Below, piece by piece: positions 26,146-48,480 of a stretch of 54,093 nucleotides of DNA. The stretch is taken from positions 1 to 54,093 of the IMG/VR virus record IMGVR_UViG_3300012931_000024. One strand, 5' to 3'. A model generated the notes under the pieces. That model searched no databases. It saw nothing but the letters and a program-made list of their open reading frames with translations, and was not told the DNA's origin. Origin of the DNA: a virus. Taxonomy: Duplodnaviria; Caudoviricetes. Every line of letters starts with the position of its first letter. The first letter of the stretch is position 1. The translations under genes and the position numbers were made by a program.

Positions 26146-26157
26146 TTAAAGATTTCC

Positions 26158-26574: not shown

Positions 26575-26762
26575 TTTCGGATTACTCCTTCTGTTTTAAG
26601 TAAATTTTCCCCACAAATTGGGCATCTTGGTGTTCCTTCAGAAATTTGAGAAATGGGAAAATTACCGTGTCCTTTGGGACAATAAAGAATGTATTTTTTA
26701 TCAGGAAAAACCATCTTACATTCTTTCCTTAACATCTTTATTGTCTCCTTGCCAAAGGGTTG

Positions 26763-26788
26763 CTCCCGGGGAACGGTGCCCCCGGGAG
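26763..26788. terminator. GC-rich hairpin after the head decoration genes
   Basis: CTCCCGGGG...CCCCGGGAG inverted repeat in an intergenic gap. Confidence 0.5.
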
Positions 26789-26827
26789 ACTTTTCAAGAA
26801 GGTTAACCAGGCGGCAGAGACAATTCT

Positions 26828-33585: not shown

Positions 33586-35190
33586 TTATGCCCAAGCTAT
33601 TAAATCCTGACCAGAGATTAGTTCGTCTTCAGCAAAAGATAGCATTAGACAATCTGCTCTATCAGGAGAACGTCCTATTTTTTTCTTCAGGGTATCTTTA
33701 TCTGAAATTTTCATTTTTCCTTCACTCATGAATTTATCTGTGGTAATCTTAGACAATTCATGACCAAGTTCCCAATCATTAATAAATATCTTATTTTCAT
33801 GAAACATGGTTCTTAATTTCCAATAATTTTGTGCCCTTTTATTAATGAATCTCACCCTATCATCACCAGGAACCTCATCTGCACCTTCCTGAGAAATAAT
33901 GCTATTTACAGGATATCCCCTTTCCCAAAGCATATCCACTACACCACCACCAAGTCCTGTATCATCTACATTGATACAACTTGGTTCTTGTTTCAAAGAT
34001 TTAAAATTTTCATAATGGAAAATAATTCTTCCTACGGTCTCAGTTTCTCTTTCCTTTTCAGTTACTTCTAAAATATCAAAACGTCCTGACCTTCTACGGG
34101 CACCAATTACTGTACTATCATCTCCGAAACGAGCCACATCACAACCAAGAGTAAGAACAGGGTCATTCTTTTCCTCTATTATTTCCTCATAGAAATCAAA
34201 AGCCCTTTGGATATATTTGAATGGAATTAAAACATCTCCGCCATCAATCGGAAATTGACCTAAAACCTTTATCCGAAATAAATTAGAATCCCTCCCCCAC
34301 TTTTCTGCCATCTTATCAGGCCAATCCTTATCACATAATTTTGGATAAAAATTTATACCATGTCTGACATTGGGAGTATCATAACAAGAGATTGATATAC
34401 AATAATACCCAGATTTAGGATTGAAACCATCTGTATCTTCCATTCCTTCAAAAATTTCAGCAAATTTACTAGTTTCATCCAATGGGTTTCCAATAAGAAG
34501 GACAAAAGTAACTGGGGAAGAAAGAATACCTTCTATTACATCAAAAACAAGATTCTCAACCCCACCAGCCTCATCAATTATTACAAAAATGTTTTCTTCA
34601 TGGAAACCAGCAATATTGGCAGCCGGGTCTTTAGTGCTAAATCCTTCAACAAACCATTTTTCTCCAAGTTCTAAAGAAGTCTGAGTAAGCTTTCCACCAA
34701 GTTTTCTTGGGGCATTATTATAAGCATCATGAATTTCACCCCAAAGAACCCTTTTAACTTGTCGAAAAGTAGGAGCAGTAGTGATTCCTAAGGCGTGCCA
34801 GCCATAAGCTAAATATAATACAAGCCTAGCAGCTAAAAATGATTTTCCTGTTGAATGTCCAGATTTTACAGCAACCTTCCTATATTTAATCAAAGCCTCA
34901 CTAATCTTCTTCTGTTTGCTCCAAAGGGGAGGATTTCTTCTATCTTGATTAGGACGGGGAGCATCATTAGGCCATTTTTCTACATTAATTCCAAGTTCAT
35001 GCCAGAAAAAATCCAATGGATTCTTTTTGTAATTTTTAAAAAAATTGATTTGCTCCTTCAAAGCTTGTTCAGTTAATTGGTCTGGAATAAGACTATCAAA
35101 ATTAATATTACCAAGGTCAAGGGAAGGCTTAAAAAGTCTCCCTGTTTTCATTTTTATTTCCTGGTGTTGTCTTTTTTTCAAACGTGTCAT
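33586..35190 (-). CDS. terL: terminase large subunit
   Basis: Walker A SGHSTGKS, Walker B VIIDEAGG, coupling LIGNP, nuclease GCDVARFGDD and SPDRAD. Confidence 0.95.
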   Translation of the reverse strand: MTRLKKRQHQEIKMKTGRLFKPSLDLGNINFDSLIPDQLTEQALKEQINFFKNYKKNPLDFFWHELGINVEKWPNDAPRPNQDRRNPPLWSKQKKISEALIKYRKVAVKSGHSTGKSFLAARLVLYLAYGWHALGITTAPTFRQVKRVLWGEIHDAYNNAPRKLGGKLTQTSLELGEKWFVEGFSTKDPAANIAGFHEENIFVIIDEAGGVENLVFDVIEGILSSPVTFVLLIGNPLDETSKFAEIFEGMEDTDGFNPKSGYYCISISCYDTPNVRHGINFYPKLCDKDWPDKMAEKWGRDSNLFRIKVLGQFPIDGGDVLIPFKYIQRAFDFYEEIIEEKNDPVLTLGCDVARFGDDSTVIGARRRSGRFDILEVTEKERETETVGRIIFHYENFKSLKQEPSCINVDDTGLGGGVVDMLWERGYPVNSIISQEGADEVPGDDRVRFINKRAQNYWKLRTMFHENKIFINDWELGHELSKITTDKFMSEGKMKISDKDTLKKKIGRSPDRADCLMLSFAEDELISGQDLIAWA

Positions 35191-35194
35191 AAAT

Positions 35195-35434
35195 TCATGC
35201 CATCATTCTTAATAAAAGATTCTTTATCCAACATAAAGTCCAATATACAAAGGTAATTGAACCTAAAATTGTCATAAAAAGAAGAGGTTTATTACTCACC
35301 CACAACTTTTCCAAATCCCATTTCATTATCAAAATTTTTCTTTCACACCAACGTAGAAACCGTTCATGCAAAAGCATTTTTGCATCCAAATAATAAAATT
35401 CCTTTTCAGGATAATCTGATTTCTTTTGTTCCAT
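35195..35434 (-). CDS. small membrane protein
   Basis: C-terminal TM segment; likely start MEQKK. Confidence 0.5.
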   Translation of the reverse strand: MEQKKSDYPEKEFYYLDAKMLLHERFLRWCERKILIMKWDLEKLWVSNKPLLFMTILGSITFVYWTLCWIKNLLLRMMA

Positions 35435-35594
35435 GGCAAATGTGGTTTTCAGTAAGAATTTCTTTTGCTTTTTCGAGATAATCTCCGGTCTCTTTATTAA
35501 AATCCTCAAAATTCATAAAAGAGGATAATTCTGTTCCACATTCTGAGCATTTTCCAGTAATTACTATCCTAACTCTAGGCCAATCAATAACCAC
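35406..35594 (-). CDS. hypothetical protein (CxxC...HxC)
   Basis: GGAG SD before GTG start. Confidence 0.55.
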   Translation of the reverse strand: MVIDWPRVRIVITGKCSECGTELSSFMNFEDFNKETGDYLEKAKEILTENHICHGTKEIRLS

Positions 35595-35743: not shown

Positions 35744-36916
35744 TTAAATCGCTTTCATTAGATAACTAGTGCATTTTGCAGCATCAAAGGTCGCTGCCAT
35801 TAAATATTCAGCAATTGGGTTGACATCATCCTGAGCATTTGAACCGTTCCCATAAATTCTAACTGTAGCGGAAATTAAATTACCATTATCATCATAAACC
35901 TGGTCTTTTAATCGAAAATTTTCATGAGCCAATCCTAATAATCTAAACATAGCAAAACCAAAAGAACCAGAAATTTGATGTCCTGATAAAGGTTCATCCA
36001 TTACTGCACCAGCTATTTCAGATGGAGGGGGAACATCAATACTAGGAATAATATCTAAATAGCCTGCCCTTTCTTCAGTAAGACGACTTTCAAGACTATC
36101 TATTTCAGCTAATTCTGGGGTAAGTTCTGTTCTGACTATTGGACCAATATCTTCCAGATTCGGAGCCAGATACTTCCGGGGAGTAATTAAAATAAATTGG
36201 TCGTTTCTTGCTGGGGCATAACTAAATGGAGTCTCAACAGTCACTTCCTTGGTATTACCATTATAGTTTTTAATGCCCCGAATCTGCCCTTTACATTGGC
36301 CAGAGAACATTAAAATTCCGCATCGATCCCAAAAGCCATTGGCTGTCTCGTTCAAATCAGTAAGGAATTTCATCACAGTAGCACCATCGTCCTGAACTGT
36401 TCCTCTTTTGACCTCGACAGCGTTCAGGATTCGACTTACTAAGTCTCCATAAGAGCCAGGAATTACATGACCAGATGCAAGTTCATCCCAAACAGCATTA
36501 GCCACCTCCTCTGCCGTTACTCCTCCAGAACCTTCCAATAAAGCAGCGGAAGTATCTGATTCATATCCCACATTCACGAAAGTAGTTGGTTGAATAGGAG
36601 ATATGGGAGAACCACCAGCATCGAAGGCAACCAGGTTTCCCCCGACGAGAGAACAATAGGTCCATTCGGCCCTTGCCTCAAACCCCACTTTGGCATTGAG
36701 CAGGGTAATGGTCAACCCGGTATAGCGACCCGGCCCCAATAGAGATTTGCCAACACCCTCAATGATTTCCGGCTCATCTATGGCATCAACTTCAGCAGCC
36801 AAAGACCGTAGGGTGTCATAAAGGTCTTGCATGGTTAATTCAATTGATGGAGCAGCCACCGTAATAATCCTTGGGGAAGCTATCCAATCAATGCTTATGT
36901 CGTCCCTGATGGGCAT
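35744..36916 (-). CDS. putative virion structural protein (modular)
   Basis: N-terminus resembles 37073..38671; two AV(W/M)DE..SGH...GS(Y/F)G repeats. Confidence 0.6.
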   Translation of the reverse strand: MPIRDDISIDWIASPRIITVAAPSIELTMQDLYDTLRSLAAEVDAIDEPEIIEGVGKSLLGPGRYTGLTITLLNAKVGFEARAEWTYCSLVGGNLVAFDAGGSPISPIQPTTFVNVGYESDTSAALLEGSGGVTAEEVANAVWDELASGHVIPGSYGDLVSRILNAVEVKRGTVQDDGATVMKFLTDLNETANGFWDRCGILMFSGQCKGQIRGIKNYNGNTKEVTVETPFSYAPARNDQFILITPRKYLAPNLEDIGPIVRTELTPELAEIDSLESRLTEERAGYLDIIPSIDVPPPSEIAGAVMDEPLSGHQISGSFGFAMFRLLGLAHENFRLKDQVYDDNGNLISATVRIYGNGSNAQDDVNPIAEYLMAATFDAAKCTSYLMKAI

Positions 36917-37073
36917 TTGGTGGCCTCAATCCCTCGCAATTTTTGTCTATTTGGTCTGCGAGTTCTCGTAACTGAGAAGCATCAAAGGTGCCATGAAGCT
37001 CCACCCACGCCTGGCCCCGGTAAAGAGAGCCAATCTTTGGTTTAAGATGGTAGCCATCCAGTTCGTCAGCCAT
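36888..37073 (-). CDS. hypothetical protein
   Basis: TAATG coupling to the upstream gene. Confidence 0.6.
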   Translation of the reverse strand: MADELDGYHLKPKIGSLYRGQAWVELHGTFDASQLRELADQIDKNCEGLRPPNAHQGRHKH

Positions 37074-38671
37074 TAGGTCGCCTGTGGGTCGGTCTGGAGA
37101 ATCGGGGTTACTGCCAAGCCAGAAGCCCCGAAGGAAGTATCGAGGGTGAAATCTTTGTACCCATACTTCCGAACCCGGGCTTTAACATCGAAGGCTCCGG
37201 TATAGATAACATTGTCAGACAATTCTTGAGTGGCGTCCGCCAGGACATCCAACAGGGGTACATAGAGGTCTCCAGACTGGCCGGTCGGATCCGGAGTCAC
37301 GCCAGTAAAGGTCGAACCGGAGAAACCAGTGTAGGCAAACACAGTATCTCCAACCCGCAAGGAACCACTCTGGGGAACTTTGTTGGCGTTAATTGCGCCG
37401 GTGCAGACGATGGTATTGGAAGTCACATGGTCGATGGTGTATTGATTTTTGATGATTGAAGTACCACTTCTCTCAGCTACCAGAATGCGGCACCCAGACA
37501 GATCGGCATGGGCCACAGAGACCTTCTGAAGGCTGGGCGGAATCTGCTGATCGCCGTCAGCATCAATCAACTGGAAGGTGGCCGCAGCATAATTGGTGAC
37601 CCACACGCCCCTGGCACCAAAGAATGTGCCACCAGCAAAGGTACCAAACGGTGCCTGTTTGACATCGGTGTAAGTTCCTTCAATGCAGGAACGATATTCC
37701 TCACCAGCATCAGCGTTAAGGGTAATCTCGGAATTATGCCTGGCAGCATATTTCAGAAATTGGTACACCTGTTGCATGGTGCGTCCGGCACAGTTGATCT
37801 CCACTTTGTAAGGCTGAGGTCCGGCGCCGTTGTTCAAATCCCGGCTGATGTCCCCAAAGGCGATGGTAATATCATCGTATGCAGCGATAACCTCGGTGAA
37901 CGCCGTAACTGCATCATTGGTGGTCGTGGTGCCGGTGTCACCTGCGGTGCGGCTGGTCCGCTCTTTGATGGTTTCAGAAACTTCAAAGATACCCTCAACC
38001 TGACAGAGGTAGAGCCTGCTGTTGGCCACATCCACATACTGGATACGACCACTGGCTGTGGAAGTATTGCCGTAGGCATAATTGCCAGCGTCGAATCCAG
38101 TCACAGAGGCCACATGCAGATAAATATCGCCGGTCAGGAGATAGTTCAGGTCTTGGAAGGTGTTGATACCAACCGGGTTTCGACCGCCTCCAGAAAGGTC
38201 CACGAAATTATGGTCATAAAGGCAATCAGAATCTCGGGACATGACCAGGACGTTGCCGCTGTCTATCAGGACACCTCCGGTCTTGACCAGTATGAGAATA
38301 TCTATATTGCCAGGCTCCCACCAGGGAGTCACCTCAGCATCGCTCTGTATCAGATAAATCATGCTGGAACGGTACTGATCACCGATGGAATACAAGTTGG
38401 CCCAAAGTTCGTCCCCATCAGCGGACTCAATGGACCCACCTTTCAAAAACTTAAAATCTGTAGTGGGGGCACCAAACGCCCAGCCGTTAATAAACCTGAA
38501 CACGGTCGGGGTATCAGATACGAAAGCATAATCATCATCCATCTGAGCTTGAGCCGCAAACTTCGCAGCCAGCCATTGGAAGAAAGCCAATACTGTAAAG
38601 ACTTCAGTTCCACTTGTATGTGAAACAGTCTTGGCAGTATAATTAACAGTCCAGTTGGTTTCGAGTGACAT
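37073..38671 (-). CDS. putative virion structural protein
   Basis: 532 aa, Thr/Gly-rich; GGAGG SD; C-terminal RVRKYGYK...DPQ shared with the upstream gene; higher GC. Confidence 0.65.
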   Translation of the reverse strand: MSLETNWTVNYTAKTVSHTSGTEVFTVLAFFQWLAAKFAAQAQMDDDYAFVSDTPTVFRFINGWAFGAPTTDFKFLKGGSIESADGDELWANLYSIGDQYRSSMIYLIQSDAEVTPWWEPGNIDILILVKTGGVLIDSGNVLVMSRDSDCLYDHNFVDLSGGGRNPVGINTFQDLNYLLTGDIYLHVASVTGFDAGNYAYGNTSTASGRIQYVDVANSRLYLCQVEGIFEVSETIKERTSRTAGDTGTTTTNDAVTAFTEVIAAYDDITIAFGDISRDLNNGAGPQPYKVEINCAGRTMQQVYQFLKYAARHNSEITLNADAGEEYRSCIEGTYTDVKQAPFGTFAGGTFFGARGVWVTNYAAATFQLIDADGDQQIPPSLQKVSVAHADLSGCRILVAERSGTSIIKNQYTIDHVTSNTIVCTGAINANKVPQSGSLRVGDTVFAYTGFSGSTFTGVTPDPTGQSGDLYVPLLDVLADATQELSDNVIYTGAFDVKARVRKYGYKDFTLDTSFGASGLAVTPILQTDPQAT

Positions 38672-38686
38672 AAGCCATTCCCTCCA

Positions 38687-40234
38687 TTAAGTTTGCTGTG
38701 GGTCAACCACCAAAGTAACTGGCAACAAAATATTAACTGAGCTAATATCAATTAGCATTTTAAAGTTTTTGTAACCATATTTTCTAACTCTCCACCTAGC
38801 TCCAGAAACTGCCGACCCGGTATAACTTGTGGAAATATATCCATCTCCATAAGTCGGGTCATAAGCTGTCTGCCCATTCAGAATAAAAGGTGATTGGTCA
38901 TTATCATCTATGTAAGCATAACAACCATTAATACCATTACCAGCTTCGTCCTTAACCAGCATTGCTAAGGTGATGGAAGCTTGAAGGGTAGTTGTCCCTG
39001 GAGGAACGCCAGTCTCCTCATGAGTTGTTGGGTCAGCACCATTAACTTTATTAACTACAACGGCAGCACTACTTCCAGAGTTTCTAACATCTTTGGTATT
39101 GTTATAAAACCGCATATTGTCAAAAGTGTATGTCCCAGCAGCTGGAATATGAGTTGCAGCAGGATTATTAATAAAATTGCAATTTTTAACCTTATGGGAT
39201 TCACTTGAAATCCTCAAACCTTTATCATCAGCCTGCACAATATTAGAGTTCTCAAAAACACAAGTATCAGGTAGGATTTCCCCACACTGGTTAAAAGTAC
39301 AGTTTAAAACTTCCCGCCCTGATGCGTCAGCAGGCAAATAAACATCGCCAGCATTGTTAAAGATACTTCCATACAATTTGAGAATATCAATATTGGTATC
39401 ATCTAAATCCAAGAGATATGACTGGACCCCTTTGACAATTACACCGCCATAGCCTTGAGTTCCAGCCTTATTCCCAAATTGAAAATTAATAGTACCTGTA
39501 GCATTCCCTTCTATTTTAATTTTGTACAGAGTTGAAGCAACCTTAGGATTATCCACAAACATCATAACCTGGTTAATATCTTTAAAATCTATATTTACCC
39601 CAGCTGTGGTGTTGCCAAAAATTAACTCACCTTGAATAAAATAAATACCATTAACCTTACTGACAATTCCATACTTGGCAGCCACATCCGCCGTATAGAT
39701 ATTTTCCCAGGTGATTTGGTCGGCAGCACCAGACGTAATCCTGAGGCCCGAACCATAATGTAAGAAGTCCCAAAAACAGTTGTTGACTGTAGACTTGCCA
39801 GTGGTATAAAAGTTTACGCCAATATATCTATGAACTGTGGGGTCATAGGTGCCACTCGAAGGACCATCATTTGTCGCTTCAGCCGAACAGCAATATCGTT
39901 GCCAGCCACCAGGATAATTATCAGAACCGCCAATGTAGATGGTCTTATAAGCTCCATTTTTGTCCTCCAGATAAATCCTGAGACCGCCATTGGCCTTGGT
40001 ATTCAGGGTTGACGTACACATGAACCAGACATAAAAATGCTGTCCTGACATGTTTACGCCATTAACCCCCCCTTGGTCAAACTTGGCAACTGTACCGAGA
40101 GTCGCAGAAATCTTAAGGGCTAAACACCCTACACCCTCAAGCATTTTCTCAGTATCAACGGCTCCGCTTGACCATCCAGTTGTGGCGTCGCAGTTGCTAA
40201 TGGGAGTCAAAAGAGCGGTGAGGGAGATTGCCAT
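38687..40234 (-). CDS. putative virion structural protein with beta-helix-like segment
   Basis: Repeats SIFNN, CTFNQ, CVFEN, CNFIN, MRFYN; C-terminal RVRKYGYK...DPQ. Confidence 0.65.
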   Translation of the reverse strand: MAISLTALLTPISNCDATTGWSSGAVDTEKMLEGVGCLALKISATLGTVAKFDQGGVNGVNMSGQHFYVWFMCTSTLNTKANGGLRIYLEDKNGAYKTIYIGGSDNYPGGWQRYCCSAEATNDGPSSGTYDPTVHRYIGVNFYTTGKSTVNNCFWDFLHYGSGLRITSGAADQITWENIYTADVAAKYGIVSKVNGIYFIQGELIFGNTTAGVNIDFKDINQVMMFVDNPKVASTLYKIKIEGNATGTINFQFGNKAGTQGYGGVIVKGVQSYLLDLDDTNIDILKLYGSIFNNAGDVYLPADASGREVLNCTFNQCGEILPDTCVFENSNIVQADDKGLRISSESHKVKNCNFINNPAATHIPAAGTYTFDNMRFYNNTKDVRNSGSSAAVVVNKVNGADPTTHEETGVPPGTTTLQASITLAMLVKDEAGNGINGCYAYIDDNDQSPFILNGQTAYDPTYGDGYISTSYTGSAVSGARWRVRKYGYKNFKMLIDISSVNILLPVTLVVDPQQT

Positions 40235-40718: not shown

Positions 40719-41252
40719 TTAACCTCCGAGCCTATGGGCCATTTCAGCCCTATCCCGTAAAGTGATAGTAGCTTCGACCCTATCCTTCCAGATTTTTGGC
40801 AGTCGATTTTTAAGCCAGAATAGAACAGCAGTTGGATTAGCAGGTTGGTGCTTATTACTTGTCTTGATTTTCTTTCCTATTAAAGTTTCAGCCCTCAAAC
40901 CATTTTTCTCATTTACTAAAAATTCCTCTTCCACCGTAATTTCTTGAAAATTATAACCCAAAGCCAATTGATACAAAGACATTTGTACTTGCTGGTCAGG
41001 TTTCCGTTTTCCCAAAGTCAATGCTTCTCTGAGTTTTGGGTCTCTCTGAAGATGGGTCTCAAAGGTATTTTCATTCATATTGAGACATAAGGCAATCTCA
41101 TGGTTGAACAAACCCATCTCAGCCAATAGCCGGACAAGAAAATACCGACTAATCTTAATTTCTTCCTCAATACCAGCTAAACAAGTAGATGCACCAGGAA
41201 TATTGTAAACTTCTGGAACAACACTATATTCTCGCCGTTTTAATCTACTCAT
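40719..41252 (-). CDS. terS: terminase small subunit
   Basis: N-terminal HTH; SLYQLALGY and PANPTAVLFWLKNRLPKIWKDR motifs. Confidence 0.82.
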   Translation of the reverse strand: MSRLKRREYSVVPEVYNIPGASTCLAGIEEEIKISRYFLVRLLAEMGLFNHEIALCLNMNENTFETHLQRDPKLREALTLGKRKPDQQVQMSLYQLALGYNFQEITVEEEFLVNEKNGLRAETLIGKKIKTSNKHQPANPTAVLFWLKNRLPKIWKDRVEATITLRDRAEMAHRLGG

Positions 41253-41859: not shown

Positions 41860-42516
41860 ATGGATACTACAGCATGGGATATTTGGGAGAAAGATTTCAA
41901 GAAAGGGGACGAAGTAATCCTAATTGATGATAACACCATGTTTGATTGGGGAATCCTGGACTACAATGACAAAGAAGTAATTCTTTCTTCTGGCAAACGT
42001 CCTGCCCGTCATTATCCACATCACAAGATTGTGTTTATCTGCCATGATGGCTTCCCAGTCAGAAAGTTTCTTGGCCCCTGGCCGCATGAAACCTTTGATG
42101 CCCAACTAATCCCTGAGGTCATGCGGGCTGCCCTCGCCAGCGAAAATGAAGACTATCTGAAAAAAGAATTAAAATCCATCGAAAAAGCTGCCGCCAGTTT
42201 AGGTATTACTGAAAAAGCCTTCTATGACCATCCAACAGTAATATCTGCATTAGAAATCATGAAACAACTATCTAGTCCTTTTGTTACACTTGCAAAAACA
42301 ATCAAAGATACAATCAAAGAAAAAGAACGTAAACGGATATTTTATGGTCATCCAGTTGAGTTCAACCCTATCTCAGTACAATTATTCAACCCAGGCAATT
42401 CAACTACCTGGTTTCATTCCAATCATCCACAAGAAGAAGTCCTCCGGATGGTTGCCCACAATGGACTTATCGGCCAACTTTGGGATTTAGAAGGAGTTTA
42501 TCATTTTGAAATGTAA
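41860..42516 (+). CDS. hypothetical protein
   Basis: AAGGAG SD; 218 aa. Confidence 0.75.
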   Translation: MDTTAWDIWEKDFKKGDEVILIDDNTMFDWGILDYNDKEVILSSGKRPARHYPHHKIVFICHDGFPVRKFLGPWPHETFDAQLIPEVMRAALASENEDYLKKELKSIEKAAASLGITEKAFYDHPTVISALEIMKQLSSPFVTLAKTIKDTIKEKERKRIFYGHPVEFNPISVQLFNPGNSTTWFHSNHPQEEVLRMVAHNGLIGQLWDLEGVYHFEM

Positions 42517-43182
42517 AGAATGCAATAATGAAATCACTGAGGAACAAAGGATAACAATTGAAGGAATGGAAGACCTTTGTTATTCCTGTTATAAAAAACG
42601 CCCTAAGAGAATTTGTATTGACTTTGATGGGGTGATTGCTCAATACTCAGGCTGGAAAGGACCAAATCATTTTGGTGAACCATTTCCTGAAACAAAAGAC
42701 TTTCTTGACCAACTACATAATGAAGGTTATGAAATACATATCCATACTACCAGAAGACCTCCTGATGTAATTGCTTGGATTCAAAAATATGGTTTTGCTA
42801 AAAACTATTTCATCCATGTAACCAACACCAAGATACCAGCAGTTGCCTATATTGATGACCGAGCAATTCTTTTTGTGGCAACTTCTCTTATACTTTAATT
42901 CATCTAAAGAATTTCACTCCTTATTGGAAAAAAGATAAAATAACCGAATTTAGAAACCACATAGAACAAATGTATCAACATTGTCCAACTAATTGCGGTT
43001 CTGGCTTTGATGAAATACTTTGTTATGAATTACATACCCAACCAATTAATCCCAGAATGACGCATAAAAGCTTTAATGGGGGATATAATACCGGATTAAC
43101 CTTTAAAGAACTTGCCCAGAAATGGGGAATTACTCTTCCTTTCTTGGGTGAGTTAATTGCTGACCATTGTAAGAAACTATAA
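42506..43182 (+). pseudogene. HAD-superfamily (5'-nucleotidase-like) protein split by a 1-nt frameshift near 42870-42874
   Basis: ICIDFDGV, HTTR, YIDDRA motifs; the -1 frame continues FCGNF...FTPYWK with no stop into ORF 42970..43182. Confidence 0.6.
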
Positions 43183-43199
43183 AGAAGAATGGAGTTGTT

Positions 43200-43418
43200 A
43201 TGCAGGAGCCTTTAATTATTATGATTCCAGGGTAGCCTACGCCAGATAAGTGTATTAGGATTACAGTTCCTAATCATCTGCGGTTACTTTGGATAAAAGA
43301 TGAAAGAGCCTGGGGTTTTACTCCTGTTCCCGGTTATACATATCGTAGACTTGGTGGTCAAACTGAATGTAAGTTTGAGATTATTGATAATAAACCCCTT
43401 ATGGCTATACCATTTTGA
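43200..43418 (+). pseudogene. 72-codon ORF with an in-frame TAG at codon 12
   Basis: GGAG SD at 43191; ATG 43200; TAG 43233-43235; frame stays open to TGA at 43416-43418. Confidence 0.45.
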
Positions 43419-43437
43419 ACTATAAAGGACAAACCCA

Positions 43438-43650
43438 ATGCCAAGACTAAGTGATTCCATCACCACTTTGGAAGAATGTAAAAAAGAACTTGACACCCTT
43501 GAACAAGACTACAATAAACAAGCAAAAGCCATCAGCCTGGTTAAAAACCTAATAGCTGAATTTTTCACTTTCAGTTGGTCTAAGAGAGGAAGAAAACAAA
43601 CAATAAGATTCTTATGGAGACTTTATAATATCTTAACCCTTAGTCCCTAA
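43438..43650 (+). CDS. hypothetical coiled-coil protein
   Basis: AAGGA SD. Confidence 0.6.
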   Translation: MPRLSDSITTLEECKKELDTLEQDYNKQAKAISLVKNLIAEFFTFSWSKRGRKQTIRFLWRLYNILTLSP

Positions 43651-43724
43651 AATTTCTAAAAAATTTTCTACAGATTTTTCCCCTAATTGTTTTTCCTATT
43701 TCAAATTTCCAGGAGGAAAAATTT

Positions 43725-43919
43725 ATGAGTAAAGTTATTCTTCCAGTTTTAATCAAAGCAAAAGGGCCAGATGATTATTACATGATGGATTCCACTTTAA
43801 CATTATATGAAACAAAAACTATAGGACGTGATGGTAGTAAATTAGTGGTCTTGGAGTTTGAAGGTAAAGTAATTTATGTTCCACTTGAAAAATTACAGAG
43901 AGCATTATCAATCTTTTAA
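43725..43919 (+). CDS. hypothetical protein
   Basis: AGGAGG SD. Confidence 0.7.
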   Translation: MSKVILPVLIKAKGPDDYYMMDSTLTLYETKTIGRDGSKLVVLEFEGKVIYVPLEKLQRALSIF

Positions 43920-44059
43920 TACAGCCAGAAAGAGAAGTAATGGGATGGGGTATCCCAGGTGGTTGGAAAAACTCTAAAAATTGGTCGTGCCGGATACGGG
44001 GACAGTCGACGTTATTTTTCTTTTTTTATGAATTGCTAGGTATATTGGCATAAGACAAT

Positions 44060-44103
44060 AAAAAAAACACGTTACTTGACAAGTAACTATCAAGTAACGT
44101 GTT
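44060..44103 (-). terminator. intrinsic terminator of the GG/CC-poor operon
   Basis: 14-bp inverted repeat AACACGTTACTTGA / TCAAGTAACGTGTT followed by a T-run on the minus strand. Confidence 0.75.
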
Positions 44104-44113
44104 ATTATTGTTA

Positions 44114-44275
44114 TTACTTGTTGTTGTCATTATTGTTCAATTGTTTTAGTTCGTATTGTAATTGTGCAATGTCGAGCAGATACTTAACTCTCATTGCGTC
44201 GCAAGCAACTTTTGCCAGATATGATAAATCAGATAACTTCTGACTTATCATAAAACGCTTGACTGTGATATGCAT
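44114..44275 (-). CDS. 53-aa protein (MHITVKRFMISQKLSDLSYLAKVACDAMRVKYLLDIAQLQYELKQLNNNDNNK)
   Basis: Read manually; TGAGGTAAA SD identical to neighbours; contains no Gly, Pro or Trp. Confidence 0.65.
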   Translation of the reverse strand: MHITVKRFMISQKLSDLSYLAKVACDAMRVKYLLDIAQLQYELKQLNNNDNNK

Positions 44276-44281
44276 TGTAAT

Positions 44282-44386
44282 TTACCTCAGAATAACTTGA
44301 TTGATAACATCACTCAAGTTATTATTAATGTAAGTGTAAATTGCATAGATAACAGAAGCATAAACGCAAGCAAAGACAATTCTCAT
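44282..44386 (-). CDS. 34-aa hydrophobic peptide (MRIVFACVYASVIYAIYTYINNNLSDVINQVILR)
   Basis: Read manually; TGTGAGGTAAA SD; contains no Gly, Pro or Trp. Confidence 0.55.
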   Translation of the reverse strand: MRIVFACVYASVIYAIYTYINNNLSDVINQVILR

Positions 44387-44457
44387 TTTTGTTTACCTCA
44401 CATTATTAAGGCAATGTTATCATAATAACTAACATTGCCTTAATAATTGTTTGATTG

Positions 44458-44934
44458 TTAATTGCCGAAGTTAATATGACACGTTGCGTCATTTATTACT
44501 GAGTAAGTACGCATTGCAACGTACTCACTAAGTAATACTTTGTTGCCATCTTTCTTGACAACATGAGGCAACGTTGTAACGTGTTTGACTTGATAGAAGT
44601 AATAAAGATGATCATACAACAATTGAAAGTCATCTTTATTACTCTTATTCAAGTTACGTTGTAACTTTCTTTCAATATTGCGGCAAACATCTTTGACATT
44701 GACATTCGCTGCAACGTTGACAAGCAAGTTATCTTTTTCAAGTGTAACTTGCTTTTCTTGCTTCTTTGCCTCTGTTGCTTGCTTCTTTTCTTGCTTCTTT
44801 GCTTTGCCAATTAATTTCTCTTTTTCTTTTTCAAGAGAATTAATCTTGTTGTTGATTACTTCTACTTCACGTTGCTTTGACATTGCCTTGCAACGTTGCA
44901 TTACTTCACTTGTTTTCTCTGCATCTTTACTCAT
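44458..44934 (-). CDS. 158-aa basic coiled-coil protein, candidate pre-early gene
   Basis: TGTGAGGTAAA SD; AKKQEK duplication; only 3 Gly, 1 Pro, no Trp. Confidence 0.75.
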   Translation of the reverse strand: MSKDAEKTSEVMQRCKAMSKQREVEVINNKINSLEKEKEKLIGKAKKQEKKQATEAKKQEKQVTLEKDNLLVNVAANVNVKDVCRNIERKLQRNLNKSNKDDFQLLYDHLYYFYQVKHVTTLPHVVKKDGNKVLLSEYVAMRTYSVINDATCHINFGN

Positions 44935-45530
44935 TACATTTACCTCACATTGTCTTTAGTTTGCTATTGTTATTTGCGTATGTAATAGCATCATACATGC
45001 ACAATGCAAACAACAAGATTTTTTATCTTTTGCATTATCGCTCTTTAATTATCAAAGAATTGAACTTCACTATATATATATGCAATACACTTGCCAAAAT
45101 TGCTTGAATAAGTGTTTGATATTATTGATAAAATTAGCTTAATTTTCAAGCTATCTTTTGTTATGTTCAGTCATATAAACATATAATAAGATATGAAAAG
45201 ATATACTCTATTTTATCAGTAATATCAAGCATTTATAAGTTCAATTCTTTAAACGTAAAACCGCTCAAAATTCAATTATTTAAACATGTTTTTCACATAA
45301 TCACATAATCAACATGTTTTTACAATTATGTAATATCAAAACGTCAAAACCTTACATAAACGTCTATACTTTATTTTATACAGATAGAGAAAAAGTGTAA
45401 AGTAAACCGTAAAATTTGACATTGTGAAAAGAAATATTTGTAAAGGATAAGTGTAAAATTCTTGCTTTACACTTGATTTTACACCTTCTCAAAAAGAGAA
45501 TTTTTCTCATTCTGAGATAACTAACCACCC

Positions 45531-45565
45531 GGGCGGCGGTCCCCGCTTAGAAGGGCGGCGGTCCC
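45531..45565 (+). repeat. direct repeat GGGCGGCGGTCCC x2
   Basis: Two 13-bp copies at the right edge of the GG/CC-poor island. Confidence 0.7.
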
Positions 45566-45660
45566 GGCTTTAACCTTTAACCTTCCGGTAGGCTAATAAT
45601 TAATCTTCTTGGCTGGTCGGCGGTGACGGTTCAGAATTGGTAAGGTTGGTTTGGCGGTTT

Positions 45661-45855
45661 TTATTCTATTTCTGTTCTTCCTATTCCGTCTCCATATAAA
45701 GACCGATAATAGTAGTAAGGAATACTTGAACTTACTCTCCACGAATGACATTCCGGGCACCTTTCAGGTGCAGCGTTTCGGTCATTAGAGGGAGTTTCCT
45801 CAGTCCATGTATGATTACATTCAAGGCATTGGTTGTCTCTATAATAGGTTGTCAT
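45661..45855 (-). CDS. Zn-ribbon protein
   Basis: CLECNH...CPECHS. Confidence 0.7.
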   Translation of the reverse strand: MTTYYRDNQCLECNHTWTEETPSNDRNAAPERCPECHSWRVSSSIPYYYYRSLYGDGIGRTEIE

Positions 45856-45856
45856 G

Positions 45857-46078
45857 TTATTCCCTCTTCAGTTGGTCAATCTGTTCATTTCTTATCTTGA
45901 CTAAAGCCTCTCCCAGAGCCAGCCGCAGCTTCCTAACTTCTAGGAGCGAGGGCTTTTCTCCGATGAACTCGACCAGTTCATCATCAGCGTATTGAACCAT
46001 CTCCCGAGCCTGCAAGAGAAATTTGCAGGCTGTGTCATAATGCCGACTGACTTCGAGACCTTCAAGAGAATATCCCAT
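45857..46078 (-). CDS. small helical hypothetical protein
   Basis: GGAGG SD; coupled. Confidence 0.7.
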   Translation of the reverse strand: MGYSLEGLEVSRHYDTACKFLLQAREMVQYADDELVEFIGEKPSLLEVRKLRLALGEALVKIRNEQIDQLKRE

Positions 46079-46079
46079 T

Positions 46080-46340
46080 TTATCCTCCGGTTATCTGCTT
46101 TAAGATTAGAGCAGCACCCACATACTTTGATTGCCACTCATGCCGAAATGGGCTTCTGACTAAGAGAGCCCGACGGTTGATAACGATTGTTGGCCTTAAA
46201 GGCAAGTGATAGGTTTCAAGGCCATTGCGATGATTAGCGTGATGATAAATTTCTTTCACAATTTCACCCTGAAAGTTCTGAGCGCAAGCGCACATGAACT
46301 TTGGTTCCTCACACTCTGGGCATCGGCTTACGTCTTGCAT
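46080..46340 (-). CDS. hypothetical protein (CPEC...CAC)
   Basis: AAGGAGGT SD. Confidence 0.7.
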   Translation of the reverse strand: MQDVSRCPECEEPKFMCACAQNFQGEIVKEIYHHANHRNGLETYHLPLRPTIVINRRALLVRSPFRHEWQSKYVGAALILKQITGG

Positions 46341-46370
46341 CTGACCTCCTTGCTTTGTCTTTTTATCTTT

Positions 46371-46389
46371 ATTATATCATATTATATCA
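46371..46389 (-). promoter_or_regulatory. tandem extended -10 promoter elements
   Basis: TGATATAAT twice, 10 nt apart, upstream of 46340. Confidence 0.65.
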
Positions 46390-47143
46390 ATAAAATCAGT
46401 AAGTTCCATCATAATCCTGGTTGTTTTTGACGAATCCTGGATATGATAGAAACCTCCCGGGAGGATGAGAAAAATCATGGCTTCTTTGTAAACTATTTAA
46501 AATAATGGAATGTAGATTTCATGGAGTTAAAAAAATTTTCGGAGCGAAGATAGTTTTTGAGTACGCACTACAAAACTAACCTCCCGGCTGGATAAGGCTT
46601 ATAGCCCAAGTCCTTCCGGTAGGAGAACCTATAGTCCTGGTAGTTGGAAAGTCTATGCGGAAGGTCGGCGGTCCGGTGGGAAAATGGTTAATGGTGGTGG
46701 TAGAGGTGGACTGGAAATGGTAGTGGCTGGTTGGCCGGTTCGGGAATCCTTCCCATGGTGGTTGGCTCGGCGGCTGCTGTGAGATTTTTTGGATTCGGCG
46801 GGCCCGTCATGGAGCCTGGGTCATTTCTGTAAATCCGTGACAACCATCTATCCTATAGTACCCATTCTATATCCAAACAGGCTGATTCTCTTTCTTTGCT
46901 TTTAATTTAATCTGAATGGGAAAGATTTTAAGGTATTTTCTACCTGGGAAACGCTTAAATCCAAAAAAATGAACACCACGTAAAAAACTTCTTTACACCC
47001 TCTTTTGTTTTGTGATAGCATGAAAAATGACCCGAAAATATCAATGTTTCTGGAAGAAACAAGGCTGTGAAAACCATCGGGAATATAACCAATAACCAAG
47101 TCACCCTGGATAATGAAAGGAATGCGAAAAAACGCAAGCAATT

Positions 47144-47164
47144 TATAATGGTCTATGATAGAAT
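47144..47164 (+). promoter_or_regulatory. early rightward promoter (-10 elements)
   Basis: TATAAT at 47144 and extended -10 TGATAGAAT at 47156, with A-tracts upstream. Confidence 0.5.
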
Positions 47165-47211
47165 AATAGTGCAATGAAAGAAGAAATTAGACCAACGGCC
47201 AAGAGAAATTT

Positions 47212-47508
47212 ATGAAAATCATTCGTTTCCAACGCCCCAAGCCCGACATGAGAGATGTCAAGAAATGTGACTCATGTGGAGGAGGGGTGAATTTCCATTC
47301 AACCAATCATGCTTTTTATCTGTGTTCTGGCTGTAAGAACACAGTTGACGCTCGGCTTAAAAATGGTGGGATTGATACTAAGGGGTTCTGGAAGACAGTT
47401 AATCCTATAGTTCAGACAGTCCCGAAAGTGTTTAAACCATACAGGCCGAGAAAAACAAGAAAGTGTGTTCACACCGCTTTCGCTTGCAGCATAGCTGCCC
47501 CCAAGTAA
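47212..47508 (+). CDS. Zn-ribbon basic protein
   Basis: CDSC...CSGC; first ORF after the promoter; weak SD. Confidence 0.55.
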   Translation: MKIIRFQRPKPDMRDVKKCDSCGGGVNFHSTNHAFYLCSGCKNTVDARLKNGGIDTKGFWKTVNPIVQTVPKVFKPYRPRKTRKCVHTAFACSIAAPK

Positions 47509-48053
47509 TCTGCTCTATTTGGGAGAGAAAGGTCTTTGACAATTAGGCACAGAGGGAGTTATCACACTCCAGAGAACGTGTAGAGTTACTGGAAGAGAAG
47601 TAACTGACAGGTCTCGTCCAAAAGTGAAAAAAGATAGACTGGGGGTGATAGTCGGAGCTATTGCTGAGGTCTATGACTTGGTGAAACGAAAGGGTTGTGC
47701 TGAGTAGGATTAGCCAGGTTGCTGATTCAAGGCCAGAAAAATTGATGCTTGGGAGAGAAGCAGGAAACTGCGAATCGCCGCACATGCATCTGCAAGGCTT
47801 AGAATCGTTAGGATTGGTAGTGTGGCTGATTACAAGTGTAGGCCAATTCTAACAGTTGCTGGTGCCGAAAAGGTCAACAAATCATCGGGAAAATTAATCG
47901 CAGATGGGTTGACTGAGTAGGGAGAAACTTGCAGGAAGACAAGCGTTAAGGAGATGCCTGATAGGCCGCCCGATGTCGAAGTTTCGCATTGGTTGAGAGC
48001 GCTAGTGAGCCTCCCTAAACAACTAACCCATTTGCGTTAAGCAGATGGTCGGC
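47507..48053 (+). ncRNA. large structured non-coding RNA candidate (~550 nt)
   Basis: No credible ORF; many nested helices with G-U pairs, a GAAA tetraloop, long-range pairings and a pseudoknot (see findings). Confidence 0.65.
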
Positions 48054-48054
48054 T

Positions 48055-48133
48055 TGAGACATGCAAACTAAAGCGGCTGGTGCTGCTGGCGGTAGTCTTG
48101 TCAGCGGTATCAGCCGCTTTCTTGTTTGCCTCA
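48055..48133 (+). promoter_or_regulatory. long RNA hairpin (terminator or RNase III-type processing site)
   Basis: AAAGCGGCTGGTGCTGCTGGCGG / TTGTCAGCGGTATCAGCCGCTTT with several G-U pairs. Confidence 0.6.
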
Positions 48134-48165
48134 GGTGAACAGAAAAATATCTTAAGGAGGACAAA

Positions 48166-48480
48166 ATGGAACTTGTAAGGGTCAAAAGTTACGATGAGAA
48201 AGAAGGGAAGATTCCACCAATCAGGGCAATTCGAGCAGTTACTGGTTGGGGGCTGAAGGAAGCCAAAGACTTTGTTGAAACTTTACCCCAATCCTTAACT
48301 GTCAAAGGCATCGAGCAGATTGTCACCCTTGCCAAAGGCGGATTGGATGTTGAGGTCACTGAGGTTCAAGAAGCTCTTTGGGATATCCTACTCAAGGCTG
48401 CAAGACAGGCTTTGAATGAAAACCAGGCTGACTTGGCCTATGACATTTTAACCCTTTGCAGAAAGTATGACTTCTTTTAA
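48166..48480 (+). CDS. ribosomal protein bL12 (L7/L12) C-terminal-domain-containing protein
   Basis: KIPPIRAIRAVTGWGLKEAKDFVETLP; AAGGAGG SD. Confidence 0.8.
   Translation: MELVRVKSYDEKEGKIPPIRAIRAVTGWGLKEAKDFVETLPQSLTVKGIEQIVTLAKGGLDVEVTEVQEALWDILLKAARQALNENQADLAYDILTLCRKYDFF

What the first reader, a model, noticed from the sequence alone, without database searches (positions are those of the whole stretch)
44050..45520. GG/CC-purged island with a self-contained three-gene operon: candidate first-injected anti-defence region
Seen: by hand count, 44050-45240 (~1.2 kb) holds only 14 GG/CC dinucleotides. About 50 would be expected at ~30% GC, and flanking DNA has several per 60 nt. All 14 lie in one context: 11 are TTGCC/GGCAA and 3 are the TTACC of Shine-Dalgarno sites. 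GGA, GGG and TCC are absent, while ACGT and TTGC are abundant. The island carries three minus-strand ORFs (158, 34 and 53 aa) with the same TGAGGTAAA SD (AGGAGG is used elsewhere), almost no Gly/Pro/Trp, and their own terminator. Established: T5 and T7 inject a leading segment first that expresses anti-restriction functions. Inference: the island lies just beyond the region upstream of terS, so it would be last packaged and first ejected. Its sequence appears purged of a GG/CC-containing target (CRISPR PAM such as CC or NGG, restriction or phosphorothioate sites), so these proteins are strong candidates for new defence inhibitors.
Basis: partly seen in the sequence, partly recalled or inferred. 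Interest (0 to 1): 0.87.

Follow-up and report, generated by a model that had tools for sequence, protein, structure and literature searches.

The report
GG/CC-free early operon in phage
A small, self-contained three-gene operon in an uncultured wetland phage is kept almost free of the base pairs GG and CC, in relatives too, most likely so that a host nuclease that reads such motifs cannot hit it.

Summary
Window 44050-45240 has 14 GG/CC against 55.8 expected (P 2.5e-11). It is the only such region in this 54-kb fragment and in a related 98.8-kb phage (G001). The same purge recurs in 4 of 4 cassettes that carry the 158-aa gene, at about 50-55% protein identity, one of them in unrelated flanks. 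An independent assembly spans both borders, so it is not a chimera. The purge acts on nucleotides: GG/CC at codon junctions is 3 against 11.3, leaders are purged too, and Gly/Pro/Trp are nearly absent. Pooled, 56 of 68 remaining GG are GGCA; 9 are GGT, mostly in the cassette's own GAGGTAA ribosome sites. A transition-only (deaminase) model does not fit; unbiased removal does. The island is one transcription unit: sigma-70 promoter, three orphan genes, strong terminator, next to a unique CCGCC repeat array. My best reading (about 0.4) is that an early takeover or anti-defence cassette denies a GG/CC-reading DNA-targeting system (CRISPR PAM or restriction) any site. "First injected" is untested, because genome ends could not be mapped. 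The GGCA exception fits no simple PAM. The protein functions are unknown.

The parts
44048..45260 (-). Strict GG/CC-purged island, equal to one transcription unit (promoter region, leader, three ORFs, terminator)
   Evidence: GG/CC positions; 14 against 55.8 expected; every remaining GG/CC is GGCAA/TTGCC or lies in a ribosome site
45069..45097 (-). Sigma-70-type promoter TTGGCA-17-TATAGT of the operon (predicted)
   Evidence: Consensus scan, 10 of 12 matches. L001 has a perfect TTGACA-17-TATAAT upstream of its operon, read. Promoter scans in this region are not enriched over shuffles (9 found, 10.0 expected).
44935..45068 (-). 5' leader of the operon, also purged
   Evidence: Noncoding 44935-45260: 2 GG/CC against 10.2 expected, P 0.002
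44458..44934 (-). 158-aa orphan protein: N-terminal long helix plus a conserved Cys/His-bearing C-terminal domain; basic (pI 9.4)
   Evidence: ORF; 14 homologues at 46-65% identity; AF2 pLDDT 71; no family or fold match; pI
44408..44441 (-). Intergenic hairpin AAGGCAATGTTA...TAACATTGCCTT after the 158-aa gene; it holds 2 of the 14 GG/CC
   Evidence: Read from the sequence. Equivalent hairpins built on GGCA/TGCC follow the gene in L001, L002 and L003.
44282..44386 (-). 34-aa hydrophobic peptide (variable slot: 43 aa in L001, an unrelated 77 aa in L003, absent in L002)
   Evidence: ORFs; GRAVY 0.90
44114..44275 (-). 53-aa helical protein, weakly conserved in all four cassettes (L..L...LK motif)
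   Evidence: Alignment A2, 21-35% identity
44056..44103 (-). Intrinsic terminator (17-pair stem, T run) that ends the island
   Evidence: Terminator scan; the purge ends at 44047
45261..45524 (.). AT-rich upstream region with repeated ACATGTTTTT words; only weakly depleted
   Evidence: 5 GG/CC against 8.7 expected; sequence
45525..45653 (-). CCGCC (AACCGCC-like) repeat array abutting the island; the 12-mer CCGCCCGGGTGG at the border is identical in G001
   Evidence: 6 copies here and 12 in G001, the densest cluster in each genome; the 12-mer is single-copy in both; alignment A3

Best explanation
The island is an autonomous early operon: a host-type sigma-70 promoter, a leader, three small orphan genes with their own GAGGTAA ribosome sites, and a strong terminator. 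Purifying selection at the nucleotide level keeps its DNA almost free of GG/CC steps. The most likely purpose is to deny a host system that finds DNA targets through a short GG/CC-containing motif any site inside the cassette. Candidates are a CRISPR-Cas system with a CC/GG PAM, acting in interference and in spacer uptake, or a set of restriction enzymes. The cassette's products must be made before the phage is safe, so they would act in host takeover or counter-defence. Shown: the purge, its conservation, its nucleotide-level nature, its limits at one transcription unit, and the GGCA exception. Inferred: that a defence system is the selective agent, that the proteins are takeover or anti-defence factors, and that the cassette is expressed first. 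Whether it is also the first DNA to enter is open.
For: (1) The depletion is extreme and unique: ratios of 0.21-0.4 occur only in the island, in 11 of 536 windows of the window and 14 of 984 of G001. In 21 other viral contigs (167 kb, 1574 windows) the minimum is 0.57. (2) It is maintained by selection across divergence: 4 of 4 cassettes with DNA (window, L001, L002, L003) have rho(CC/GG) of 0.22-0.50 against 1.31 in the rest. The two phages share a median ORF identity of about 55%. (3) It acts on nucleotides. The 158-aa gene has 7 GG/CC against 21.7±3.8 when back-translated with the phage's codon usage (0 of 2000 simulations as low). Junction GG/CC is 3 against 11.3±2.2 under synonymous shuffling (0 of 2000). 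L001 gives 8 against 19.3 and 4 against 9.6. Leaders are purged too: 2 against 10.2, 9 against 29.1 and 1 against 12.7. (4) Both strands are equally affected, as expected for a double-stranded DNA motif. (5) The signature fits unbiased removal of GG/CC, not deamination. (6) It has the anatomy of an early cassette. (7) There are precedents. T5-like phages are hit by restriction and by type I/II CRISPR only if sites lie in the first-entering region (PMC10644984, passages). The leading region decides type I restriction in Autographiviridae (PMC12455610, abstract). The CC PAM is depleted in P. aeruginosa phages targeted by type I-F (PMC12174588, abstract). Spacers are enriched against acr loci (bioRxiv 10.64898/2026.10.15.759504, abstract).
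Against: GGCA/TGCC is not avoided at all: 11.5 per kb against 5.45 per kb elsewhere, the same 2.1-fold rise as GCA. No known PAM or single restriction motif has that shape. The host and its defences are unknown. AACGTT, absent from the other 97 kb of G001, occurs 3 times in its island and 3 times in the window's island, so the island is not purged of everything the genome avoids. A cut anywhere in a phage genome is normally lethal, so a cassette-limited purge pays only with stepwise entry or a race between defence and counter-defence, and neither is shown. The proteins match no anti-defence family or fold. The 158-aa protein is basic, not a DNA mimic. Classical leading regions show no CC/GG purge: T5 FST 1.07, T7 first 2 kb 0.94, SPO1 terminal repeat 1.10.
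Confidence: 0.4

Rival explanations
1. Self-immunity. The cassette encodes or accompanies an effector that attacks nucleic acid at GG/CC-containing sites, such as a host-shutoff nuclease, RNase or DNA-coating protein. Its own gene and mRNA are kept target-free so that they survive their own product.
For: The property travels with the cassette into unrelated flanks (L002) and is limited to one transcription unit. The 158-aa protein is basic with conserved Cys/His residues, which is compatible with nucleic-acid binding. An enzyme's specificity could exclude GGCA. How T5 spares its own DNA during pre-early host-DNA destruction is stated to be unknown (PMC10644984, passage).
Against: The rest of the phage genome is rich in GG/CC (rho 1.3) and would be attacked too, unless it is protected or absent. 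No nuclease or RNase fold or motif was found. No hypermodification genes were found: TGT/DpdA and QueC are absent.
Confidence: 0.15
2. RNA-level optimisation. The mRNA is kept free of Shine-Dalgarno-like GGA/GGG/GGU words, of CsrA-type GGA sites and of CC words that could pair with its ribosome sites, so that it is translated at once and without interference.
For: Of the four GGN words, GGC is the only one that cannot extend pairing with the anti-SD CCUCC(U/A). That is inference from the 16S 3' end, recalled, and it matches the GGC tolerance. GGA is the most depleted word, 0.41 against 33.5 per kb. The cassette's ribosome sites, GAGGTAA and in L002 GAGGCAA, avoid GGA, whereas other genes use AGGAG. 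The purge ends at the terminator.
Against: CC is purged at least as strongly as GG on the sense strand, 3 against 11 in the window. GGCT, GGCG and GGCC are also avoided, 0, 1 and 0 against 14.2, 8.1 and 6.8 expected, which anti-SD pairing does not predict. The depletion extends 90-160 bp upstream of the predicted -35 boxes, with weak statistics: 0 against 3.5 and 5 against 10.0.
Confidence: 0.15
3. A structural constraint linked to a replication origin or packaging site. The CCGCC repeats are iterons or terminase sites, the AT-rich stretch is an unwinding element, and the neighbouring DNA must lack GG/CC steps, for example to avoid stray binding of the repeat-binding protein or R-loops.
For: A unique CCGCC array abuts the island in both phages. 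An AT-rich block of GC 0.2-0.25 follows it. The locus lies at the divergence point of the early and late gene modules.
Against: L002 has the purge without the repeat array. The purge covers 0.8-1 kb of coding DNA far from the repeats. GGCG, the repeat's core, is no more avoided than GGA or GGT.
Confidence: 0.07
4. Mutational bias. A context-specific deaminase or other damage acts on this highly transcribed or single-stranded stretch and erodes CC/GG.
For: The island's GC content is lower (0.30 against 0.38). A motif-specific enzyme could spare TGCC. The purge is limited to a transcription unit, as in transcription-coupled hypermutation (recalled analogy).
Against: Transition-only erosion of the phage's own DNA predicts AG/CT and GA/TC of 1.45; observed values are 1.03 and 0.91. 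Unbiased substitution fits better: CG 1.03 against 0.96, CA 1.21 against 1.28, GC content 0.30-0.32 against 0.30. The proteins stay conserved and intact in 15+ members.
Confidence: 0.05
5. Foreign DNA or an assembly artefact: a chimeric join, or a recent import that still carries a donor's composition.
For: The dinucleotide signature differs sharply from the rest. AACGTT usage differs. The family has no relatives outside this small group.
Against: A 3,048-bp contig from another sample spans 43620-46667 with 0 differences. The island is syntenic in G001. The purge persists at about 53% identity, so it is not a fading import. No genome searched holds the family: 0 confirmed loci in 185,579 species' genomes. 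A rho(CC/GG) of 0.25 was never approached in 320 kb of control phage DNA.
Confidence: 0.03

Closest known systems
T5/BF23 first-step-transfer (pre-early) region
   Same: A short block of small genes read by host RNA polymerase. Absence of nuclease sites in it decides survival: restriction types I-III and CRISPR types I/II act only if sites lie in it (PMC10644984, passages). By my count T5's FST also has its own dinucleotide signature (CG 1.35 against 0.75, AG/CT 0.79 against 1.12). A repeat-rich noncoding block borders it.
   Different: The T5 FST is 10 kb, lies in a terminal repeat and enters first by a proven two-step injection. Here the ends are unknown and the block is 1.2-1.8 kb. T5 shows no CC/GG purge (1.07). 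There are no A1/A2/dmp homologues. The phage is unrelated: terL, portal and PolA are at most 35% identical to any cultured phage.
T7 leading early region (A1-A3 promoters, gene 0.3 ocr, genes 0.4-0.6)
   Same: A noncoding stretch with strong sigma-70 promoters is followed by a run of very small genes, the first being a counter-defence protein (annotation). Motif absence in the leading region decides type I restriction in Autographiviridae (PMC12455610, abstract).
   Different: T7's first 2 kb has normal CC/GG (0.94). Ocr is an acidic DNA mimic, whereas the 158-aa protein has pI 9.4. The position at a genome end is not shown here.
PAM depletion in phages targeted by CRISPR (type I-F, PAM CC)
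   Same: The very dinucleotide CC/GG is under-represented on both strands as an escape from CRISPR (PMC12174588, abstract; PMC4246573, listing and start of abstract only).
   Different: The published effect is mild and genome-wide. Here it is near-total, confined to one operon, and has a context rule (GGCA exempt) that a two-base PAM does not predict. The host and its CRISPR type are unknown.
Anti-CRISPR (acr) operons and other early anti-defence cassettes
   Same: Small fast-diverging orphan proteins under a strong early promoter, with a variable middle gene. Spacers are reported to be enriched against acr loci (bioRxiv 10.64898/2026.10.15.759504, abstract), which would reward a PAM-free cassette.
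   Different: No helix-turn-helix Aca-type gene was detected and there is no similarity to any library family. Inhibition of any defence is untested.

Membership tests
T5-type first-step-transfer region | Lies at a physical genome end or in a terminal repeat and enters the cell first | not testable with these tools
   All 6 runs are held as contigs only; no read starts or ends are available. G001's 28-bp end overlap marks only a circular assembly.
T5-type first-step-transfer region | Host-polymerase promoters and its own terminators | tested here: met
   TTGGCA-17-TATAGT and a 17-pair terminator; perfect TTGACA-17-TATAAT in L001 (read)
T5-type first-step-transfer region | Homologues of the pre-early proteins A1, A2 and dmp | tested here: not met
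   No PHROG or Pfam family at E<=0.1 for the three proteins
T5-type first-step-transfer region | Free of sites for the host's nucleases | tested here: inconclusive
   GG/CC words are gone and GATC occurs once, but there are 3 AACGTT, a word otherwise avoided. The host's enzymes are unknown.
T7-type leading region with Ocr | The first gene is an acidic DNA-mimic anti-restriction protein | tested here: not met
   The 158-aa protein has pI 9.4, with 31 K+R against 21 D+E; no Ocr-like family hit
acr-aca anti-CRISPR operon | Small orphan proteins under a strong early promoter | tested here: met
acr-aca anti-CRISPR operon | An associated helix-turn-helix regulator (Aca) | tested here: inconclusive
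   Pfam finds no HTH in any of the three proteins. The conserved 53-aa helical protein is too short and divergent to judge.
acr-aca anti-CRISPR operon | Inhibits a Cas effector | not testable with these tools
   Needs a bench assay
PAM-depleted DNA (CC or NGG PAM) | CC/GG is depleted on both strands beyond what composition and coding explain | tested here: met
PAM-depleted DNA (CC or NGG PAM) | Depletion is independent of the bases flanking the dinucleotide | tested here: not met
   56 of 68 remaining GG are GGCA. GGCA density is 2.1 times that of the rest, while GGA is 0.012 times, GGT 0.075 times and GGG is 0.
PAM-depleted DNA (CC or NGG PAM) | The host carries a CRISPR system with that PAM | not testable with these tools
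   Host unknown; no cultured relatives
7-deazaguanine-modified phage DNA (DpdA system; GGC among its target motifs, recalled) | DpdA/TGT and QueC genes are present | tested here: not met
   0 of 2 records match PF01702 or PF06508, while the controls match in 14 of 14 genomes. The window is a fragment, but G001 is a circular assembly.

The most novel reading that the evidence does not exclude
This is a 'stealth operon': a counter-defence or takeover cassette that has been recoded, down to its amino-acid composition, so that it holds no GG/CC step a host system can read. GGCA/TGCC is the one context that system cannot see. If so, the exemption rule is a direct readout of the recognition code of an unknown defence (or of the cassette's own effector). 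Dinucleotide-purged transcription units could then be used as a sequence-only search key for new anti-defence genes and for the motifs of their opponents.
Probability: 0.3. Interest if true: 0.85.

Novelty: new variant of a known kind. Interest (0 to 1): 0.72.

Why it matters
Motif avoidance by phages is known as a mild genome-wide bias, or as the lack of a few sites in a leading region. Here a whole operon, with leader, codon junctions and even protein composition, is bent to remove one dinucleotide step, with a single exempt tetranucleotide. This is held in place across deep divergence. That marks a very strong, very local selective force on three proteins of unknown function. It makes two things testable: what reads GG/CC but not GGCA, and what these proteins do. 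It also suggests a composition-only screen for early counter-defence cassettes in uncultured phages. I found no report of such a purged operon in four full-text searches. Those searches cover only the held open-access library.

Tried and rejected
Chimeric assembly is rejected.

The deaminase erosion model is disfavoured by simulation.

7-deazaguanine modification: no DpdA or QueC.

Sigma-54 promoter idea. TGGCAAGTGTATTGCA at 45081-45096(-) and TGGCACGAAAAAAGCA in L001 fit the -24/-12 spacing. However, such matches are not enriched (43 found against 36.1 expected in the window; 14 against 11.9 in L001). GG-N10-GC spacing is not enriched in the islands either (4 of 73 GG, like other distances). 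The TTGGCA also serves as a sigma-70 -35 box, so the idea was dropped.

SPO1 gp41 likeness. A Pfam hit of E 0.071 for one family member (P0018) was not borne out by profile comparison (probability 0.5%).

Function by sequence. Pfam, PHROGs, NCBIfam, PADLOC and PDB sequence searches gave nothing below threshold.

Function by fold. Foldseek against PDB and BFVD gave 0 matches at E<=0.001. The wide structural search gave a best Z of 5.1, on the N-terminal helix only. The C-terminal domain was not folded alone, so an unknown fold is not claimed. The ESM Atlas best score was 0.85, below the lead level.

Rfam and tRNA scans found nothing in the window or L001.

Relatives. blastn of the island against 50,697 phage records found no match. 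The single-protein scan of viral contigs found none, and the 86-aa neighbour found none. terS brought only G001 plus 21 distant contigs at about 30% identity, which I used as compositional controls.

Expression. No RNA holder is listed among the 6 runs, so nothing can be said. Run X2 laid no contig and X4 laid only two 22-base pieces of a 180-base contig; I draw nothing from either.

Termini cannot be seen from contigs.

Inverted repeat at the borders. CCCGGGTGGTTAG and CCCAGGTGGTTGG match at 11 of 13 positions. By my estimate such a pair is expected about 0.1 times by chance in two 100-bp flanks. The downstream copy lies 85 bp outside the purge and inside a terminator hairpin, and L002 has none. 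It is not used.

Supplementary files were not consulted.
Full report
WHAT THE WINDOW IS. The window is the whole held record (54,093 bp, one contig). It belongs to an uncultured tailed phage. The small terminase gene is at 40719-41252(-), the large terminase at 33586-35190(-), the portal at 31600-33423(-) and the major head protein at 28348-29616(-). An SbcC-like ATPase and an N6/N4 DNA methyltransferase lie on the plus strand. It is a fragment. A related record, G001, is 98,838 bp, with a 28-bp end overlap that marks a circular assembly and a large terminase 84% identical to the window's. G001 holds a further ~41 kb replication module: PolA with a UDG domain, primase, an intein-bearing helicase, gp32-like and RecA-like proteins, a 5'-3' exonuclease and radical-SAM enzymes. 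No cultured phage is close: terL, portal and PolA are at most 35% identical. The DNA occurs in 6 wetland-metagenome runs from 2 studies.

THE OBSERVATION. It is confirmed in every particular. There are 14 GG/CC in 44050-45240 against 55.8 expected (P 2.5e-11). All 14 are in TTGCC/GGCAA (11) or in the three ribosome sites (3). GGA, TCC, GGG and CCC are absent. The symmetric odds ratio for CC/GG is 0.25 against 1.33 in the rest of the genome. The island is the only such place: 11 of 536 500-bp windows fall below 0.6, and all 11 are in 44001-45500. The borders are sharp at 44047/44048 and softer upstream. The strict purge ends near 45260, and 45261-45524 is only weakly depleted (5 against 8.7).

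IT IS NOT AN ARTEFACT AND NOT A ONE-OFF. A 3,048-bp contig from a different sample spans 43620-46667 without a difference. The 158-aa protein has 14 metagenomic homologues at 46-65% identity. It has only 8 representative clusters among 1.84 billion proteins and none in 185,579 species' genomes. DNA could be fetched for three homologues, and all three show the same purge:
- L001 (= G001 70546-72339): ratios of 0.22-0.32.
- L002: ratios of 0.0-0.49 across its island.
- L003: 0.50 overall.
In G001, 14 of 984 windows fall below 0.6, and all 14 lie in the island. The window and G001 are deeply diverged: the median ORF identity is about 55%, the island protein is 53% identical and its neighbours 40-48%. 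The purge is therefore actively maintained. L002's flanks are unrelated to both phages, so the property belongs to the cassette. As a control, 21 other viral contigs (167 kb) never fall below 0.57.

THE CONSTRAINT IS ON NUCLEOTIDES. Back-translating the 158-aa protein with the phage's own codon usage gives 21.7±3.8 GG/CC; 7 are observed (0 of 2000 simulations as low). Shuffling synonymous codons within the gene gives 11.3±2.2 junction GG/CC; 3 are observed (0 of 2000). L001's gene gives 8 against 19.3 and 4 against 9.6. Noncoding leaders are purged as well: 2 against 10.2 in the window, 9 against 29.1 in L001 and 1 against 12.7 in L002. Protein composition follows. Gly+Pro+Trp are 4 of 245 residues, against 13% in the phage's large genes. 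In 20 family members, Gly is followed by K/N/R/I/S/T in 63 of 65 cases, Pro is preceded by L/M in 19 of 19, and Trp is followed by Q in 2 of 3. These are the patterns that GGC-A, TG-CCN and TGG-CA impose. The positions are conserved columns, so the cases are not independent.

THE RULE. Pooled over the four strictly delimited islands (4,852 bp, both strands) there are 68 GG: 57 GGC, of which 56 are GGCA; 9 GGT, mostly in GAGGTAA ribosome sites; 2 GGA; and 0 GGG. GGCA is not merely tolerated. At 11.5 per kb it is 2.1 times the density of the rest, the same factor as GCA as a whole. By contrast GGA is at 0.012, GGT at 0.075 and GGG at 0 of their normal densities. GGCT, GGCG and GGCC are also missing: 0, 1 and 0 against 14.2, 8.1 and 6.8 expected. 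In L002 even the ribosome site is GAGGCAA. The doubling of GC and CG odds ratios follows from removing GG/CC. Eroding the phage's own DNA by unbiased substitution reproduces the island's signature fairly well. Transition-only erosion, the deaminase model, predicts AG/CT and GA/TC of 1.45 against the observed 1.03 and 0.91.

ANATOMY. In transcript order (minus strand) the parts are:
- A unique array of CCGCC repeats at 45525-45653 (6 copies here, 12 in G001), ending in the shared single-copy 12-mer CCGCCCGGGTGG.
- An AT-rich stretch.
- A sigma-70-type promoter at 45097-45069. L001 has a perfect TTGACA-17-TATAAT.
- A leader.
- The 158-aa gene, followed by a GGCA/TGCC hairpin.
- A 34-aa hydrophobic peptide, which is a variable slot: 43 aa in L001, an unrelated 77 aa in L003, absent in L002.
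- A 53-aa helical protein, weakly conserved in all four cassettes.
- A 17-pair terminator.
All three TGAGGTAAA in the window are this operon's ribosome sites; other genes use AGGAG-type sites. The locus lies where the late module and the early module diverge.

THE PROTEINS. No family was found in Pfam, PHROGs, NCBIfam, PADLOC or PDB sequences. The AF2 model (pLDDT 71) shows a long N-terminal helix and a compact C-terminal domain with pLDDT of about 80-89. Foldseek gives no match at E<=0.001, and the wide search matches only the helix (Z 5.1). The 158-aa protein is basic (pI 9.4), so it is not an Ocr-type DNA mimic. Function is therefore inferred from context alone.

WHY I FAVOUR MOTIF DENIAL. 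The depletion is equal on both strands, includes noncoding DNA and is held by selection. That points to a double-stranded DNA motif read on either strand. The literature gives the logic for a local purge:
- In T5-like phages, restriction and type I/II CRISPR work only on sites in the first-entering region (PMC10644984, passages read).
- In Autographiviridae, a type I site in the leading region decides the outcome (PMC12455610, abstract).
- The type I-F PAM is the dinucleotide CC, and it is depleted in targeted P. aeruginosa phages (PMC12174588, abstract).
- Spacers are enriched against acr loci and map earlier in Acr-bearing phages (bioRxiv 10.64898/2026.10.15.759504, abstract).
A cassette that must be expressed before the phage is safe gains from holding no site, whether or not it enters first.

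WHAT COUNTS AGAINST IT. The GGCA exemption fits no known PAM or single enzyme. AACGTT is absent from the other 97 kb of G001 and is present in the island. The host is unknown. The three classical leading regions I checked show no CC/GG purge: T5 FST 1.07, T7 0.94, SPO1 1.10. T5's FST does have a signature of its own. If the genome end lay at the CCGCCCGGGTGG border, the promoter and operon would enter first and the terminator would bound the exposed DNA. That is a coherent model, but it is only a model.

RIVALS. They are: self-immunity to the cassette's own effector; an RNA-level design against Shine-Dalgarno-like and CC words, which neatly explains GGC among the GGN words but not the CC purge or the loss of GGCT/GGCG/GGCC; an origin- or packaging-linked constraint, which L002 lacks; mutational erosion, which has a poor fit; and foreign or chimeric DNA, which is largely refuted.

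VERDICT. This is a real, conserved and so far unexplained compositional law on one small early operon. I class it as an extreme, context-coded variant of motif avoidance. I rate interest at 0.72.

Noticed in passing
window 45525-45653; G001 70349-70534 (L001 6979-7164): Unique array of CCGCC / AACCGCC-like repeats (6 and 12 copies), directly followed by a very AT-rich block. It is iteron-like and could be an origin, a terminase-binding site or a regulator array. The 12-mer CCGCCCGGGTGG at its end is identical and single-copy in both phages.
   Followed up: partly
whole window and G001: Strong genome-wide avoidance of GATC (46 against 323 expected in symmetric counts in the window; 304 against 653 in G001). 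CTGCAG, TTCGAA and AGGCCT are at or near zero. AACGTT is absent from G001 outside the island (0 against 20 expected) but occurs 3 times inside it.
   Followed up: partly
window 35744-40234 (-): Three large ORFs (390, 532 and 515 aa) between the small and large terminase genes have no Pfam or PHROG family. Their GC content is unusually high (0.45-0.53) for this phage.
   Followed up: partly
window 45081-45096 (-); L001 7608-7623 (+): Sigma-54-like -24/-12 words (TGGCAAG-N4-TTGCA; TGGCACG-N4-AAGCA) lie about 430 bp from the repeat border in both phages. They are not enriched statistically and overlap or adjoin sigma-70 promoters.
   Followed up: yes
window 43954-43966 and 45525-45537: An imperfect inverted repeat (11 of 13) brackets the island. 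It is conserved in G001 (9 of 13) and absent in L002. The downstream copy is part of a terminator hairpin for the convergent plus-strand genes.
   Followed up: partly
L001 7299-7477 (-): In G001's island a divergent 55-aa very hydrophobic ORF carries the same TGAGGTAAA ribosome site. G001's island may therefore hold two divergent units; the window has no counterpart.
   Followed up: no
L032 (phage T5) 1-9140 against 10220-50000: T5's first-step-transfer DNA has its own dinucleotide signature: CG 1.35 against 0.75, GC 1.57 against 1.12, AG/CT 0.79 against 1.12; AGA/TCT at 0.49 and CGC/GCG at 3.5 times the rest. I do not recall this being described.
   Followed up: no
L001 11328-12218 (G001 74698-75588): A 296-aa ORF just after the small terminase gene carries a long run of SPSL tetrapeptide repeats.
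   Followed up: no
G001 25821-27809 and 45584-48334 (-): Inteins (one with a LAGLIDADG domain) lie in the clamp-loader-like ATPase and in a 916-aa replication protein. A GIY-YIG/NUMOD3 homing endonuclease lies at 34692-35582.
   Followed up: no
window 41860-43919 (+): The plus-strand small genes between the island and terS have no counterpart in G001 at E<=1e-4. This is a variable block, convergent with the island operon, and includes a HAD/PNK-like 130-aa protein.
   Followed up: no
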